Shown piece after piece: positions 60,001 through 64,000 of a DNA stretch of 64,000 nucleotides (position 1 is its first letter; each line of letters opens with the position of its first letter). Made by a program: the position numbers. Origin of the DNA: Escherichia coli. Lineage in GTDB: Bacteria; Pseudomonadota; Gammaproteobacteria; Enterobacterales; Enterobacteriaceae. The stretch lies in assembly GCF_003018235.1 (NCBI RefSeq), contig NZ_CP027437.1; one strand, 5' to 3'.

Positions 60001-63000
60001 TTAACAAAGGTTTTACCAAGAGAGTTGCGATTTTTTAATGTTGTTCTTGTACTTGTTGTCTTTTCGTTTTCGCTTCCTCATTTTTTTATTGCTCCAGCTG
60101 CTGATTATCGTTATCTGCATTTTTCAGTTGTTTGTGCAGTGGTTCAATTAGGAATGTTTTTGGGCTTTTTCTTTATGAGATTGTATAAAAGAGTGTATTT
60201 TGGGGCGATTAAATTGTTGGGTTAAGGGTGTTCTTCTGTTATCACATATTTTATCTATATATTTATAGGTTTATTAGATTGGGTAATTAAGTGTTGTCTG
60301 TATCTTGGTGCTCTTGTTGAATATGTTTTTTAGCCCAGCTCTAATTGTCTGTGCTTTTTTGCCTAAATTATTATTGATTTTTACTTTTTCCTTAATATTA
60401 ACTTAATAAATGAGGTCATATAGTAATGAAGTAAATCTGAATTGTGCCGTCGGTCATTGACATTTCATCAACTCAGACGTTACAACTTTTAATACATGTC
60501 ATGATGATGCAAACATGATGAGCAAAAGTTAACCCTGAGAAAATTAAATGAAAATCACTATTTCTGGTACCGGATATGTTGGCCTGTCAAATGGTATTCT
60601 GATTGCTCAGAGCCACGAAGTGGTGGCACTGGATATCATCCAGACGAAAATCGAGATGCTGAATCAGAAACAATCCCCGATTGTGGATAAAGAGATCGAA
60701 GAGTATTTGGCGACTAGGTCGCTAAACTTCCGTGCAACGACTGATAAGTGTGATGCCTACCGAGATGCGGACTACGTTATTATCGCGACACCAACTGATT
60801 ATGATCCAAAGACTAATTACTTTAATACCTCAAGTGTCGAGTCTGTTATTCGCGACGTGGTTGCAATTAATCCAGATGCAGTAATGGTAATTAAGTCTAC
60901 CATCCCAGTAGGTTTTACTAATTCTATCAAAGAAAAACTGGGCACCGAAAATATTTTCTTTTCCCCAGAATTCCTGCGTGAGGGTAAAGCACTATATGAC
61001 AACCTTTACCCATCTCGTATTGTCATTGGTGAGCGTTCAGAGCGCGCCGAGCGTTTTGCAGCTCTGCTACAGGAAGGGGCACTAAAGAAAGATATTCCGA
61101 CCCTATTTACCGACTCGACCGAAGCCGAAGCTATTAAGCTGTTCGCTAATACCTATCTGGCGCTGCGTATAGCCTACTTTAATGAGCTGGACAGCTACGC
61201 TGAAACTCTAGGCCTGAATTCACTACAGATAATTGAAGGGGTATGCTTGGATCCGCGAATAGGAAACCACTATAACAACCCGTCATTTGGCTACGGCGGT
61301 TACTGTCTGCCTAAGGATACCAAGCAGTTGCTGTCCAACTATGAATCGGTACCGAATAACTTAATCGGTGCGATCGTCGAAGCTAATCGCACTCGTAAAG
61401 ACTTTATTGCCGACTCTATTCTCGCGCGCAAGCCTAAGGTGGTGGGTGTTTATCGCCTGATTATGAAGTCGGGTTCGGATAACTTCCGCGCGTCCTCCAT
61501 TCAGGGGATCATGAAGCGTATTAAGGCCAAGGGTATCACGGTAATTATTTATGAACCGGTGATGCAGGAAGATGAGTTTTTTAACTCCCGTGTGGTACGT
61601 GACTTCGAAGCCTTTAAGCTGGAGGCAGACGTGATTATCTCCAACCGTATGGCAGAAGAGCTGGTGGATGTTGGAGATAAAGTCTATACCCGTGATCTGT
61701 TTGGTAATGATTAAACGTTAGTTTTTGTGTCGTTCTCGGCGGTGCTTCGCTTGGCCGGGCTATGTTAGAAAAAGCCCTCATCTTGGACTGCACCCCAAAA
61801 GTTGGACACCCAACTGATTAAGGTGCAGTTTTTTATGGCAAAGCCAAAATATTCTCTCGAAACCAGATTAGCTGTCGTTACTCATTATCTTGCCGGACAC
61901 GATGGCGCACGTCGTACCGCTGAACGTTTTGGTGTTGAAGAAACATCAGTGCGACGCAGGGTAAGAGCCTGGCAACTCCACGGTATTGATGGTATTACAT
62001 GGAAAAATGACCGCCATTCTCCTGAGTTTCGACTGACGGTTGTCCTGAAGTCTCTGAGTGAAGAACTTACCATGCGCGAAGCCGCCGCACGGTTTAATAT
62101 CTCCAATGAATCCGTTGTCCGGCACTGGGTGAAGGTTTACAAAGACACTAGTGAAGCAGGACTTCTGAACATAAAACCAGGCCGGAGCAAGGACATGACA
62201 AAACCTCTAAAAACACCTCCACTTACGATGAAGAATTGGAAAAGTTATCTCCCGAAGAACTGCGGGCGGAACTCCGTTACCTTCGCGCAGAGAATGCCTA
62301 TCTAAAAAAGCTGAAGGCCTTAGTTCAAAGCGAGAAAAACGGCAGAAAGCCCGGATAATCAGTGAGCTAAGGCTGAAGCATGCGCTCGGTGATCTTCTGC
62401 GTGCCGCGGGTATGTCCCGCAGTACGTGGTATCACAATATGAATGCCCTGAAGCGAGTGGACAGGCATGCCGGACTGAAAGACAAATCAGAGAGATTTAT
62501 CATTATCACAAAGGGCATTATGGCTACCGCAGAATCACGCTCTCACTGAGAAAATAGGGCGTGTTGGTAAACCATAAAACAGTGCAGCGGCTGATGGCAG
62601 AGCTGTCGCTCCGCTCTGTGATAAGGGTGAAGAAATATCGTTCCTGGAAAGGGGAAGTAGGCAAAGCTGCACCCAATATCCTGATCCGGAACTTTGGTGC
62701 AACGAAGTCCAACGAAAAATGGGTGACGGATGTTACAGAGTTCTCGGTACAGGGTAAAAAGCTGTACCTGTCGACAGTTCTCGATCTGTTTAACCGGGAG
62801 ATTATCTCCTACAGCCTGTCAGAAAGGCTGGTGATGGAGATGATTAATACGATGCTGCACGATGCATTCTCAGTGTTTGGACCGGAGGATGCACCGTTGC
62901 TGCACACGGTTCAGGGCTGGCAATATCGAATGGCAGGCTATCAGGCAACGTTAAAGGCCCATGGAATGACACAAAGTATGTCGCGCAAGGGAAACTGTCT

Positions 63001-64000
63001 GGATAACGCAGTGATGGAGAACTTCTTCGGCGCACTGAAATCGGAGTGTTTTTACCTGAACAGGTTTAGCGATCTGAATGAACTGAGGAAAGCGATAGAG
63101 GACTATATCCATTATTATAACAACGAGCGGATCAGCCTGAAATTAAAAGGCCTGAGTCCGGTAGAATACCGAACTCAGGCCCTGAAAGCCGCTTAACATG
63201 AACTGTCCAACTTTATGGGGGCAGTCCATCCATGAGGGCTTTTTTTGTGCACAGAAAATCCCCTGCTAGGCTGAGGGGGGGGCCGGAAAGCTTTCAGCTT
63301 TGAGCCAGTTATTAAAACCCTTTTGATTTGTTAAAACACCTTGCGGTCTGGCAACTGCAAGTGTCAAACAAGAAATCAAAAGGGGGGGCTAATGGGGAAC
63401 AAAGAGAGCTTAGCGCACACCCGATTGAACGATAAATCTCACATATTTTTTGCGCCAAAATACCGAAGACAGGTGGTAAGGTAATCCCCCCGAAAAAACC
63501 GGTGCGATGTCCGGGTTAGGAAAGAGGATTACTGATGTCTTTTGCATAAATTCTCAATCACCGTCGTCAGGTCTAGGTTCTGATCCTGCAACAGCACCAG
63601 CAGGTGATACATCAAGTCCGATGCCTCGTTGGTCAGTTCGAAGCGGTCATGTACTGTGGCGGCCAGTGCTGTTTCCACGCCTTCTTCGCCCACTTTCTGC
63701 GCAATGCGTTTGGTGCCGCTGGCATACAGTTTGGCGGTATAGGAGGTTTCCGGATCGGCAGATTTACGTTCGGCGAGCAGTTGTTCCAGTTGATACAGGA
63801 ACAGCCATTGGTGAGCGGTGTCGCCGAAGCAGCTGCTGGTGCCTTTGTGGCAGGTCGGGCCGATGGGATTCGCCAGCAACAGTAACGTGTCGTTGTCGCA
63901 GTCCGGCGTAATATTTACTACGTTGAGGAAATTGCCCGACGTTTCGCCTTTGGTCCACAGTCGCTGTTTAGTGCGCGAGAAGAAGGTGACTTTGCCGCTT

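What the first reader, a model, noticed from the sequence alone, without database searches (positions are those of the whole stretch)
61715..63528. wzzB absent between ugd and hisI; the position is occupied by insertion-sequence material
In the canonical arrangement a Wzz chain-length regulator gene lies between ugd and hisI. Here ugd is followed within 70 bp by an IS3-family element and then an IS200-like fragment abutting the hisI stop. Loss of wzz is compatible with an ABC-transporter-dependent O-PS, which does not use Wzz, and the IS material may mark the deletion event.
Basis: partly seen in the sequence, partly recalled or inferred. Interest (0 to 1): 0.5.

Follow-up and report, generated by a model that had tools for sequence, protein, structure and literature searches.

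The report
wzzB lost by imported-locus replacement
This E. coli O101/O162-type strain does lack the O-antigen chain-length gene wzzB between ugd and hisI, but the gene went when the whole sugar-gene region was swapped for a Citrobacter/Kluyvera-like one that never had it there, so the transposon debris is a later, ordinary scar.

Summary
The 1,814 bp between them hold no wzz. About 92% of it is a dead 1,445-bp IS3-family element (61784-63228) and a 229-bp IS200 left-end stump (63247-63475).

The O-antigen cluster is the published ABC-transporter O101/O162 type, which does not use Wzz. But the IS material does not mark a wzzB deletion.

- **Foreign DNA on both sides.** ugd, its terminator, the 52 bp beside hisI and the last ~45-110 bp of hisIE are all foreign. 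The recombination breakpoint lies inside hisIE.
- **Relatives lack wzz here.** E. coli O89-type loci, Citrobacter and Kluyvera carry ugd, a convergent uge-like epimerase or its remnant, then hisI.
- **The IS3 element is a simple insertion.** It sits in the loop of the ugd terminator.
- **The IS200 stump marks loss of the epimerase, not wzzB.**
- **No wzzB elsewhere.** The five complete genomes sharing this locus have no wzzB-like DNA on their chromosomes.

This is ordinary locus replacement followed by decay, and of low interest.

The parts
60548..61714 (+). ugd (UDP-glucose 6-dehydrogenase), a foreign allele
   Evidence: NCBIfam equivalog, E 1.5e-235. Nucleotide identity is 74-76% to K-12 ugd, 95.5% to O89-type E. 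coli MB06234 and about 90% to Citrobacter CP099374.1. The closest Ugd proteins outside E. coli are from Citrobacter braakii and relatives, at 95% aa identity.
61715..61783 (+). Donor-type ugd 3' flank. It ends with the A-run and left arm of a bidirectional terminator (stem GCCCTCAT, 61774-61781) and the left copy of the target duplication (TCT, 61781-61783).
   Evidence: Colinear with MB06234 and Citrobacter up to the hairpin loop. The same hairpin is intact, without any IS, in MB06234, Enterobacteriaceae RIT691, Kluyvera and Citrobacter.
61784..63228 (+). Dead IS3-family insertion sequence of the ISKpn1/IS1397 subgroup, 1,445 bp
   Evidence: IRL is TGGACTGCACCCCAAAAGTTGGACA and IRR is TGGACTGCCCCCATAAAGTTGGACA. 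OrfB matches NCBIfam IS3 at E 1.2e-78. The element is colinear over its full length with ISKpn1 at 79.5%, and 96.5% identical to an intact copy on a C. braakii plasmid. Compared with that copy it has single-base deletions at 62225 and 62483, a CAG>TAG stop at 62555, and D>V in the catalytic HTDQG motif.
63229..63246 (+). Right copy of the target duplication (TCC), right arm of the ugd terminator (ATGAGGGC, 63232-63239) and its T-run (63240-63246)
   Evidence: Joining the two flanks and removing one duplication gives a hairpin of -21.1 kcal/mol (z = -5.35). The corresponding empty sites are seen in MB06234, RIT691 and Kluyvera.
63247..63475 (+). IS200 left-end stump: left end, complete 5'UTR and the first 31 codons of tnpA. 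The right ~480 bp of the element are missing.
   Evidence: 92% identical to IS200C of strain BS15R-A over 241 nt (alignment). The IS200 left boundary is defined by the K-12 empty site. Homology to IS200 stops at 63475 with no IS end there.
63257..63382 (+). IS200 5'UTR / art200 (STnc490) RNA region inside the stump
   Evidence: Rfam RF01405 STnc490, full model 1-124, 111.9 bits against a gathering score of 56, E 7e-23. The published art200 is antisense to this stretch (PMC4513863).
63477..63528 (-). Remnant of the donor-type epimerase-hisI spacer, including the his-operon terminator
   Evidence: It aligns best to MB06234 (37 of 52 identities, score 20) and to the Kluyvera epimerase-hisI spacer (33 of 52, score 13). 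It scores 4 or less against all wzzB-hisI spacers and 1 against K-12. It is also shared with Citrobacter. Folded as RNA it gives -19.6 kcal/mol.
63529..64000 (-). hisIE 3' part (the gene runs off the window). The recombination breakpoint is at about 63572-63642.
   Evidence: At informative sites, 10 of 10 between 63530 and 63571 are donor-type. Sites from 63574 to 63640 are mixed. From 63643 onward they are almost all E. coli-type. In 100-bp sliding windows, identity to K-12 is 81%, then 92-99%.
41880..52222 (+). Context: O101/O162-type ABC-transporter O-antigen cluster, with wzm 45143-45922, wzt 45929-46681 and the capping methyltransferase 48975-50138
   Evidence: RefSeq names it the 'O89/O101/O162 family'. 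Wzm and Wzt match the NCBIfam galactan-export models at E 1.6e-71 and 1.6e-89, both below the curated score cut-offs. The methyltransferase has Pfam methyltransferase domains. Literature: PMC7685785, PMC13168486.
53859..60225 (+). Context: the gnd-ugd side-branch module, seven ORFs
   Evidence: [quoted passage not shown]

Best explanation
The window is the his-linked polysaccharide region of an E. coli O101/O162-type strain. I propose the following history.

1. **Import.** A block of about 22 kb, from just after galF (about 41442) to inside the 3' end of hisIE (about 63572-63642), was brought in by homologous recombination from another enterobacterium. The closest sampled relatives are Citrobacter braakii-group and Kluyvera. 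In that donor architecture the ugd-hisI slot holds a convergent uge-like NAD-dependent sugar-nucleotide epimerase, which shares a bidirectional terminator with ugd. There is no wzz. The recipient's own ugd-wzzB segment was simply replaced. (The foreign tracts, the breakpoint and the relatives' architecture are shown. The direction and the single-step nature of the import are inferred.)
2. **Loss of the epimerase.** After this branch split from the O89-type branch, an IS200 inserted right after the T-run of the ugd terminator. A non-transposase deletion then removed the IS200 right part, the whole epimerase gene and about 116 bp of spacer. It left a 229-bp IS200 stump joined to the last 52 bp before hisI. 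(The junction is shown. The order of events is inferred.)
3. **IS3-family insertion.** Independently, an ISKpn1/IS1397-type element inserted into the loop of the ugd terminator with a 3-bp duplication. It has since decayed.

The functional cost is nil. The O101/O162 polymer is built on the cytoplasmic face and exported by Wzm/Wzt. Its length is set by the cluster's methyltransferase cap, not by Wzz (published). The donor-type epimerase became a pseudogene or was lost in all three sampled branches, which suggests it is dispensable there.
For: **K-12 homology.** It ends inside ugd at 61704 (76% identity) and resumes only at the hisI stop, 63531. No wzzB DNA is left. On the left, K-12-type DNA ends at galF, 41441.

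**Breakpoint in hisIE.** 10 of 10 informative sites between 63530 and 63571 are donor-type. E. coli-type sites dominate from about 63643. The result is the same with MB06234 or Citrobacter as the donor proxy.

**O89-type sister locus** (MB06234, PSS-15, AREA_497). Its ugd and flank are 95.5% identical to the window. Remove IS100 (inserted in the epimerase) and IS66::IS110 (flanked by the 8-bp duplication CATTCATT) and it becomes colinear with Kluyvera ugd-epimerase-hisI except for 26 bp. That leaves no room for wzz.

**Other relatives.**
- Citrobacter CP099374.1 carries the same last glycosyltransferase, gnd, side-branch module and ugd (86-92% nt). Its ugd-hisI gap is 449 bp and holds only the terminator, epimerase remnants and the same spacer.
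- Kluyvera genomosp. 1, Phytobacter and E. coli SY3626 have ugd, a convergent epimerase, then hisIE, without wzz.

**Spacer remnant.** The window's 52-nt remnant aligns to the epimerase-hisI spacer type, not to any wzzB-hisI spacer.

**IS3-family element.** It sits in a hairpin loop, and the rejoined site folds at -21.1 kcal/mol. Three other close copies (C. braakii, Pantoea and Rahnella plasmids) also sit in terminator-like hairpin loops, with perfect 3-bp duplications.

**No wzzB elsewhere.** All five complete genomes with this locus give one match (the tag only) to a tag+wzzB query, and two matches (tag plus wzzE) to a tag+wzzB+wzzE query.

**Chain length without Wzz.** Disrupting the methyltransferase alters chain-length distribution, and O162 chains carry one methyl cap each (PMC13168486).
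Against: - No sampled genome is close enough to be the actual donor. The best are 86-92% nt (Citrobacter) and 80% or less among species representatives.
- Only 52 bp of the donor spacer survive in the window. A wzz gene lost together with the epimerase cannot be formally excluded for this branch. Many Enterobacter, Citrobacter and Lelliottia genomes do have ugd-epimerase-wzzB-hisI.
- The IS3 target duplication is imperfect (TCT versus TCC).
- The search for wzzB elsewhere was done at DNA level on relatives' chromosomes. It did not cover the source strain's own genome or plasmids, and was not a protein-level search.
Confidence: 0.85

Rival explanations
1. A canonical E. coli ugd-wzzB-hisI segment lost wzzB in place through an IS-mediated deletion, and the IS3-family element and IS200 fragment are the footprints of that event.
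For: IS material fills about 92% of the gap. The IS200 copy is truncated at a non-IS junction, which shows that some deletion did occur.
Against: ugd, its 3' flank, the 52 bp beside hisI and the last ~45-110 bp of hisIE are all donor-type, not E. coli-type. The IS3-family element is a simple insertion into a hairpin loop, flanked by both halves of the hairpin. Sister loci and Citrobacter show an epimerase in this slot, not wzzB.
Confidence: 0.04
2. The imported segment had the Enterobacter/Citrobacter-type order ugd-epimerase-wzzB-hisI. In the O101/O162 branch one deletion, the one that truncated IS200, removed both the epimerase and a donor wzz.
For: That order is common among genera with related Ugd: Pluralibacter, C. 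youngae ATCC 29220, E. cloacae, Lelliottia and E. asburiae. Only 52 bp of the original spacer remain in the window.
Against: The 52-nt remnant and the hisIE 3' end match the epimerase-hisI spacer type of MB06234, Citrobacter CP099374.1 and Kluyvera, and not any wzzB-hisI spacer. The two closest locus relatives (O89-type E. coli at 95.5% and Citrobacter at about 90% over ugd) have no wzz and no room for one.
Confidence: 0.09
3. The arrangement is an assembly or sequencing artefact, for example a collapse across repeated IS copies.
For: IS elements are a frequent cause of misassembly.
Against: The same arrangement occurs in five independent complete genomes and in all 23 contigs read from different projects. 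This IS3-family element is single-copy in four of the five genomes (two places in SCPM-O-B-12142).
Confidence: 0.01

Closest known systems
E. coli O101/O162 (and O89) O-antigen loci as published (Iguchi/DebRoy reference clusters AB812046, AB812067, AB812038; Liu et al. 2019 review, PMC7685785; Weerdenburg et al. 2026, PMC13168486)
   Same: The gene content from galE to the last glycosyltransferase is the same, as are wzm/wzt, the capping methyltransferase and the extra genes between gnd and ugd. The first gene after gnd is intact here, as in the O162 type. RefSeq names the transporter the 'O89/O101/O162 family'.
   Different: The papers I read do not comment on the ugd-hisI interval or on the absence of wzzB. 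'wzz' occurs 0 times in PMC13168486 and PMC6128206. The window also has a private nonsense mutation in the second module gene.
his-linked O8/O9/O9a loci and O89m with group-1 capsule regions of E. coli, of Klebsiella origin (PMC7685785; Harris et al. 2018, PMC6128206)
   Same: An ABC-transporter O-antigen sits in E. coli with a his-proximal architecture that is described as 'atypical in E. coli, normal in Klebsiella'. It was acquired by inter-genus replacement and has IS elements and gene remnants next to the his operon.
   Different: Here the closest relatives are Citrobacter and Kluyvera, not Klebsiella. The O cluster itself sits between galF and gnd. The ugd-hisI slot held only an epimerase.
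Canonical K-12 ugd-wzzB-hisI arrangement
   Same: The flanking genes ugd and hisIE are in the same order and orientation.
   Different: wzzB, its promoter region and the wzzB-hisI terminator are entirely absent. ugd is a 74-76% divergent foreign allele.
IS1397 / ISKpn1 (IS3 family elements that insert into loops of palindromic units; Wilde et al., cited in PMC1525189)
   Same: The length is the same (1,445 bp, as for the ISKpn1 copies matched) and the element is colinear with ISKpn1 over its whole length at 79.5%. It has TG...CA ends and the orfA/orfB layout. It is inserted in the loop of a hairpin with a 3-bp duplication.
   Different: The targets seen here are terminator-like hairpins followed by T-runs, not REP/PU repeats. 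The window copy is inactivated by four lesions.
IS200 (Salmonella/E. coli; art200/STnc490, PMC4513863)
   Same: The left end, 5'UTR stem-loops and the tnpA start are 92% identical to IS200C. The Rfam STnc490 model matches in full.
   Different: Only the first 229 of about 707 bp remain. There is no right end and no functional transposase.

Membership tests
Wzz / PCP-1 chain-length regulator (WzzB) | A ~325-aa protein with a Wzz domain and two terminal TM helices, encoded between ugd and hisI | tested here: not met
   tblastn with K-12 WzzB gives nothing better than E = 1.6 in the window. A 14-sequence Wzz profile finds only Wzc. No K-12 wzzB DNA remains.
Wzz / PCP-1 chain-length regulator (WzzB) | A wzzB copy elsewhere in the genome | tested here: not met
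   The five complete genomes with this locus have no wzzB-like DNA on their chromosomes by blastn, while the wzzE control is found. The source strain's own genome, its plasmids and protein-level homologues were not testable.
ABC-transporter-dependent O-polysaccharide pathway | wzm and wzt in the cluster, and no wzx/wzy | tested here: met
   Wzm matches at E 1.6e-71 and Wzt at E 1.6e-89 to the galactan-export models (below the curated cut-offs). No wzx or wzy is annotated in the near-identical locus. The pathway assignment is published (PMC7685785).
ABC-transporter-dependent O-polysaccharide pathway | Chain length set by a non-reducing-end cap rather than by Wzz | not testable with these tools
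   A methyltransferase gene is present at 48975-50138. The experimental support comes from the literature only (PMC13168486).
IS3 family (ISKpn1/IS1397 subgroup) | Terminal inverted repeats ending 5'-TG...CA-3' | tested here: met
   The two ~25-bp inverted repeats match at 22 of 25 positions.
IS3 family (ISKpn1/IS1397 subgroup) | orfA/orfB encoding a DDE transposase | tested here: met
   NCBIfam IS3 transposase, E 1.2e-78. Full-length colinearity with ISKpn1.
IS3 family (ISKpn1/IS1397 subgroup) | 3-bp target duplication | tested here: inconclusive
   The flanks are TCT and TCC, matching at 2 of 3 positions. Close copies elsewhere have perfect TAA, CAT and TTT duplications.
IS3 family (ISKpn1/IS1397 subgroup) | Intact, potentially active transposase | tested here: not met
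   Two frameshifts, one nonsense codon and a D>V change in the catalytic motif, relative to an intact 96.5% copy.
IS200/IS605 family (IS200) | Left end with a terminator hairpin and the 5'UTR stem-loop | tested here: met
   92% identical to IS200C from its first base. Rfam STnc490 at E 7e-23. The left-end hairpin is partly degenerate.
IS200/IS605 family (IS200) | Complete tnpA (Y1 HUH transposase) and a right end | tested here: not met
   Homology stops after codon 31, at 63475. No right-end sequence is present.
Donor-type ugd / uge-like epimerase / hisI architecture | A convergent NAD-dependent epimerase gene sharing a terminator with ugd | tested here: not met
   The gene is absent from the window. 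The shared terminator and the hisI-side spacer remain. The gene or its remnants are present in MB06234, Citrobacter, Kluyvera and SY3626. After an unreviewed near-identical structural-genomics entry (5u4q, E 1e-196), the closest solved relatives are the 6ZL6/6ZLA-type epimerases at E 1.8e-48. From my own knowledge these are UDP-glucuronate 4-epimerases.

The most novel reading that the evidence does not exclude
The IS3-family element belongs to a sub-lineage of the IS1397/ISKpn1 group that targets the loops of intrinsic-terminator hairpins rather than REP/PU repeats. All four close copies I examined sit in such loops with 3-bp duplications: the window copy and copies on C. braakii, Pantoea and Rahnella plasmids. 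Such an element would systematically split terminators between convergent genes. Separately, the IS200 stump keeps the whole art200 / 5'-tnpA RNA region and could still produce Hfq-binding RNAs.
Probability: 0.35. Interest if true: 0.35.

Novelty: new member of a known kind. Interest (0 to 1): 0.2.

Why it matters
It corrects a tempting inference. IS debris sitting where a gene is missing does not show that the IS removed the gene. Here the gene left through inter-genus replacement of the whole locus, and the debris records later decay of a different, dispensable gene.

For O-antigen genomics it documents three things:
- The O101/O162 and O89 loci carry a Citrobacter/Kluyvera-type his-proximal end, with the crossover inside hisIE.
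- These strains have no WzzB at all.
- At least 637 of 5,426 complete E. coli genomes (about 12%) show no K-12-like wzzB DNA (highly divergent alleles could be missed).

This is useful context for serotype prediction and for glycoconjugate-vaccine work on O101/O162. It does not change the understanding of chain-length control.

Tried and rejected
- **Failed query design.** The first chimeric query (tag plus two wzzB alleles plus wzzE) failed because ordinary genomes outranked the tagged ones. I redesigned it with a longer tag.
- **Insensitive tblastn.** tblastn with WzzB alone did not even detect Wzc, so I built a 14-sequence Wzz profile.
- **Hairpin origin.** I considered that the hairpin around the IS3-family element was IS200's own left-end terminator. 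I rejected this because the same hairpin follows ugd without any IS200 in MB06234, RIT691, Kluyvera and Citrobacter, and IS200's own hairpin lies further in.
- **Internally deleted IS200.** I considered that the IS200 piece was an internally deleted element that kept both ends. I rejected this because no right-end sequence is present.
- **No donor among species representatives.** The scan found no ugd above 80% nt identity. The Citrobacter relatives were found only through the protein search and contig look-up.
- **Epimerase not named.** NCBIfam gave no equivalog above cut-off for the epimerase.
- **Extra match in one genome.** The third match in genome 2017.17.03CC is not wzzB. I did not identify it.
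- **Tool hiccup.** Early scripts failed because fetched loci are bundled in shared files.
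Full report
**What is in the sequence.**
The window is E. coli. It is 99.9% identical over 23.6 kb to strain NCTC10973.
- ugd is 60548-61714 (+). hisIE is on the minus strand with its stop at 63529-63531 and is open to the window end.
- The 1,814 bp between them contain no Wzz coding capacity. tblastn with K-12 WzzB gives nothing better than E = 1.6 anywhere in the 64 kb. A profile built from 14 Wzz proteins finds only colanic-acid Wzc (18917-21127, E 8e-4) among 736 six-frame ORFs.
- The gap holds a 1,445-bp IS3-family element at 61784-63228. It starts 69 bp after the ugd stop, has TG...CA inverted repeats, and its OrfB matches IS3 transposase at E 1.2e-78.
- The gap also holds a 229-bp IS200 left-end fragment at 63247-63475, 92% identical to IS200C (E 1e-95). 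It ends 53 bp short of the hisI stop.
- The same structure occurs in five complete genomes and in all 23 contigs read that encode the identical Ugd.

**Which locus this is.**
RefSeq names the transporter genes 'O89/O101/O162 family' wzm/wzt. The published O101/O162 clusters use the ABC-transporter pathway. They have a putative capping methyltransferase and 'six additional genes between gnd and ugd', proposed to make the 4-deoxy-D-arabino-hexose branch of O162. In O101 the first of these genes carries an IS (PMC7685785). Here that first gene is intact, so the locus is O162-type. Three of the related SCPM strains have the insertion. Recent work shows that the methyltransferase is required for a single terminal methyl cap, and that disrupting it changes the chain-length distribution (PMC13168486).

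**Where E. coli DNA stops and starts.**
- K-12-type sequence runs at 95-99% from the start of the window to the end of galF at 41441.
- On the right, K-12 homology resumes only at the hisI stop, and even there it is initially poor.
- I took sites where K-12 and a second E. coli agree with each other but differ from the O89-type strain MB06234 or from Citrobacter. The window is donor-type at 10 of 10 such sites between 63530 and 63571. It is mixed up to 63640 and E. coli-type from 63643 on.
- ugd is 74-76% identical to K-12 ugd. It is 95.5% identical to MB06234 ugd and about 90% to Citrobacter CP099374.1.

So the whole interval, including both sides of the 'wzzB slot', is imported DNA. The right-hand crossover lies inside hisIE.

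**What the imported architecture looked like.**
- *O89-type E. coli.* In MB06234, PSS-15 and AREA_497, ugd is followed by a convergent NAD-dependent epimerase pseudogene split by IS100. RefSeq mislabels its 5' piece as a GDP-mannose dehydratase fragment. After it comes an IS66 carrying a nested IS110, then hisIE. The IS66 is flanked by the 8-bp duplication CATTCATT. Removing it and IS100 gives a sequence colinear with Kluyvera genomosp. 1 ugd-epimerase-hisIE, except for 26 bp. There is no room for wzz.
- *Citrobacter.* The closest Ugd proteins outside E. coli are from the Citrobacter braakii group, at 95% aa. Their genomes carry the same last glycosyltransferase, gnd, side-branch module and ugd at 86-92% nt. 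Their ugd-hisIE gap is 449 bp and holds only the terminator, epimerase remnants and the same spacer.
- *Other genera.* Kluyvera, Phytobacter and E. coli SY3626 have ugd-epimerase-hisIE without wzz. Several Enterobacter, Citrobacter and Lelliottia genomes have ugd-epimerase-wzzB-hisIE.
- *The window's remnant.* The 52 nt next to hisI (63477-63528) align well to the MB06234 and Kluyvera epimerase-hisI spacer (scores 20 and 13). They score 4 or less against every wzzB-hisI spacer.

**The two IS elements.**
*IS3-family element.* It sits exactly in the loop of the ugd/epimerase bidirectional terminator, AAAAAGCCCTCAT / ATGAGGGCTTTTTTT, with flanks TCT and TCC. The rejoined site folds at -21.1 kcal/mol (z = -5.35). 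The uninterrupted hairpin is seen in MB06234, RIT691, Kluyvera and Citrobacter. The element is colinear with ISKpn1 (79.5%). It is 96.5% identical to an intact copy on a C. braakii plasmid. Relative to that copy it has two 1-bp deletions, a nonsense codon and a D>V change in the catalytic motif. Three other close copies also lie in terminator-like hairpin loops, with perfect 3-bp duplications.

*IS200 stump.* It begins immediately after the terminator's T-run, which is where the epimerase 3' end begins in MB06234 and Citrobacter. It stops at 63475 at a junction that is not an IS end, and is followed directly by the hisI-side spacer. What is missing between those points is the rest of IS200, the epimerase gene and about 116 bp of spacer. 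The deletion it marks is of the epimerase, not of wzzB.

**Is there a wzzB elsewhere?**
A lineage-specific tag ranks the five related genomes first, and the number of matched places per genome shows what else matches.
- With tag + K-12 wzzB + wzzE, four of the five have two places and one has three. K-12 has two.
- With tag + wzzB only, all five have one place, the tag.

They therefore have wzzE but no wzzB-like DNA on the chromosome. Across the collection, at most 4,789 of 5,426 genomes have detectable K-12-like wzzB DNA. Absence is therefore not rare. It includes the 304 genomes that carry the related cluster at 93.2% identity. The one I examined (ST167) has it on an IS26-bounded unit at an ectopic site, as described for O89m (PMC6128206).

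**Verdict.**
The finding is real but ordinary. wzzB was lost by inter-genus replacement of the his-linked polysaccharide region, in a strain whose O-antigen does not use it. The IS material is later decay.

Remaining uncertainty:
- No genome is close enough to be the donor itself.
- Only 52 bp of the donor spacer survive, so a donor wzz lost together with the epimerase keeps roughly a 9% chance.
- The source strain's own full genome could not be searched.

Noticed in passing
window 55077 (gene 54996-56006, +): A C>T change turns CAG into TAG (Q28*) in the second gene after gnd, a 336-aa gene labelled GT2 in one relative. NCTC10973 and seven other relatives have CAG. The O162 side-branch module may therefore be inactive in this strain, by a route different from the published IS insertion in O101.
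   Followed up: partly
window 63257-63382 (+): The Rfam STnc490 model (the art200 region of IS200) matches in full (111.9 bits, E 7e-23). The IS200 stump keeps its left end, the whole 5'UTR/art200 region and 31 codons of tnpA, so it could still produce the Hfq-binding RNAs described for IS200.
   Followed up: partly
window 61784-63228; L102 601-2047; L103 151-1597; L104 151-1597: All four close copies of this ISKpn1/IS1397-related element sit in the loop of a GC-stem hairpin followed by a T-run, with 3-bp duplications (TCT/TCC, TAA, CAT, TTT). This suggests targeting of intrinsic-terminator loops rather than REP/PU repeats. A true ISKpn1 copy (L105) and a 93% E. coli relative (L015) show no such hairpin.
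   Followed up: partly
L002 2990-3720 versus L003 (K-12 gnd-ugd spacer); window 63240-63247: IS200C in strain BS15R-A lies within the T-run of the gnd terminator, and K-12 shows the empty site. The window's IS200 stump likewise starts right after a terminator T-run. IS200 may favour such sites.
   Followed up: no
L014 4059-4308 (MB06234; the same in PSS-15 and AREA_497): The RefSeq pseudogene labelled 'GDP-mannose 4,6-dehydratase' is actually the 5' part of the uge-like epimerase that IS100 split. It aligns to the N-terminal part of the SY3626 and Kluyvera epimerase genes.
   Followed up: yes
L021 (E. coli SY3626_hybrid, NZ_CP059283.1): A different ABC-transporter O cluster (rfbBADC with wzm/wzt) is followed by the same seven-gene gnd-ugd module at about 76% nt. 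After it come a frameshifted ugd, an intact epimerase and hisIE, and this genome has no K-12-like wzzB DNA either. The side-branch module thus travels with unrelated O clusters.
   Followed up: partly
L005 (E. coli ST167, NZ_CP093919.1); 304 of 5,426 complete genomes carry the related cluster (93.2% wzm/wzt), two of them on plasmids. In the ST167 genome I examined it sits on an IS26-bounded unit between nfsB and ybdK. This matches the published O89m/Onovel32 arrangement.
   Followed up: partly
collection-wide: At least 637 of 5,426 complete E. coli genomes (about 12%) show no K-12-like wzzB DNA by blastn at E <= 1e-5.
   Followed up: no
L108 8588-8605 (Citrobacter CP099374.1) versus window 59187-60157: The Citrobacter relative lacks about 970 bp of the 456-aa membrane-protein gene that closes the gnd-ugd module in the window. 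The module is decaying there too.
   Followed up: no
window 63546: An A where NCTC10973 has G gives HisIE R198C, five residues from the C-terminus. One other relative (L006) shares it.
   Followed up: no
NZ_AP027829.1 (strain 2017.17.03CC): This genome gave three matched places to the tag+wzzB+wzzE query, where the other four relatives gave two. The extra place is not wzzB and was not identified.
   Followed up: partly
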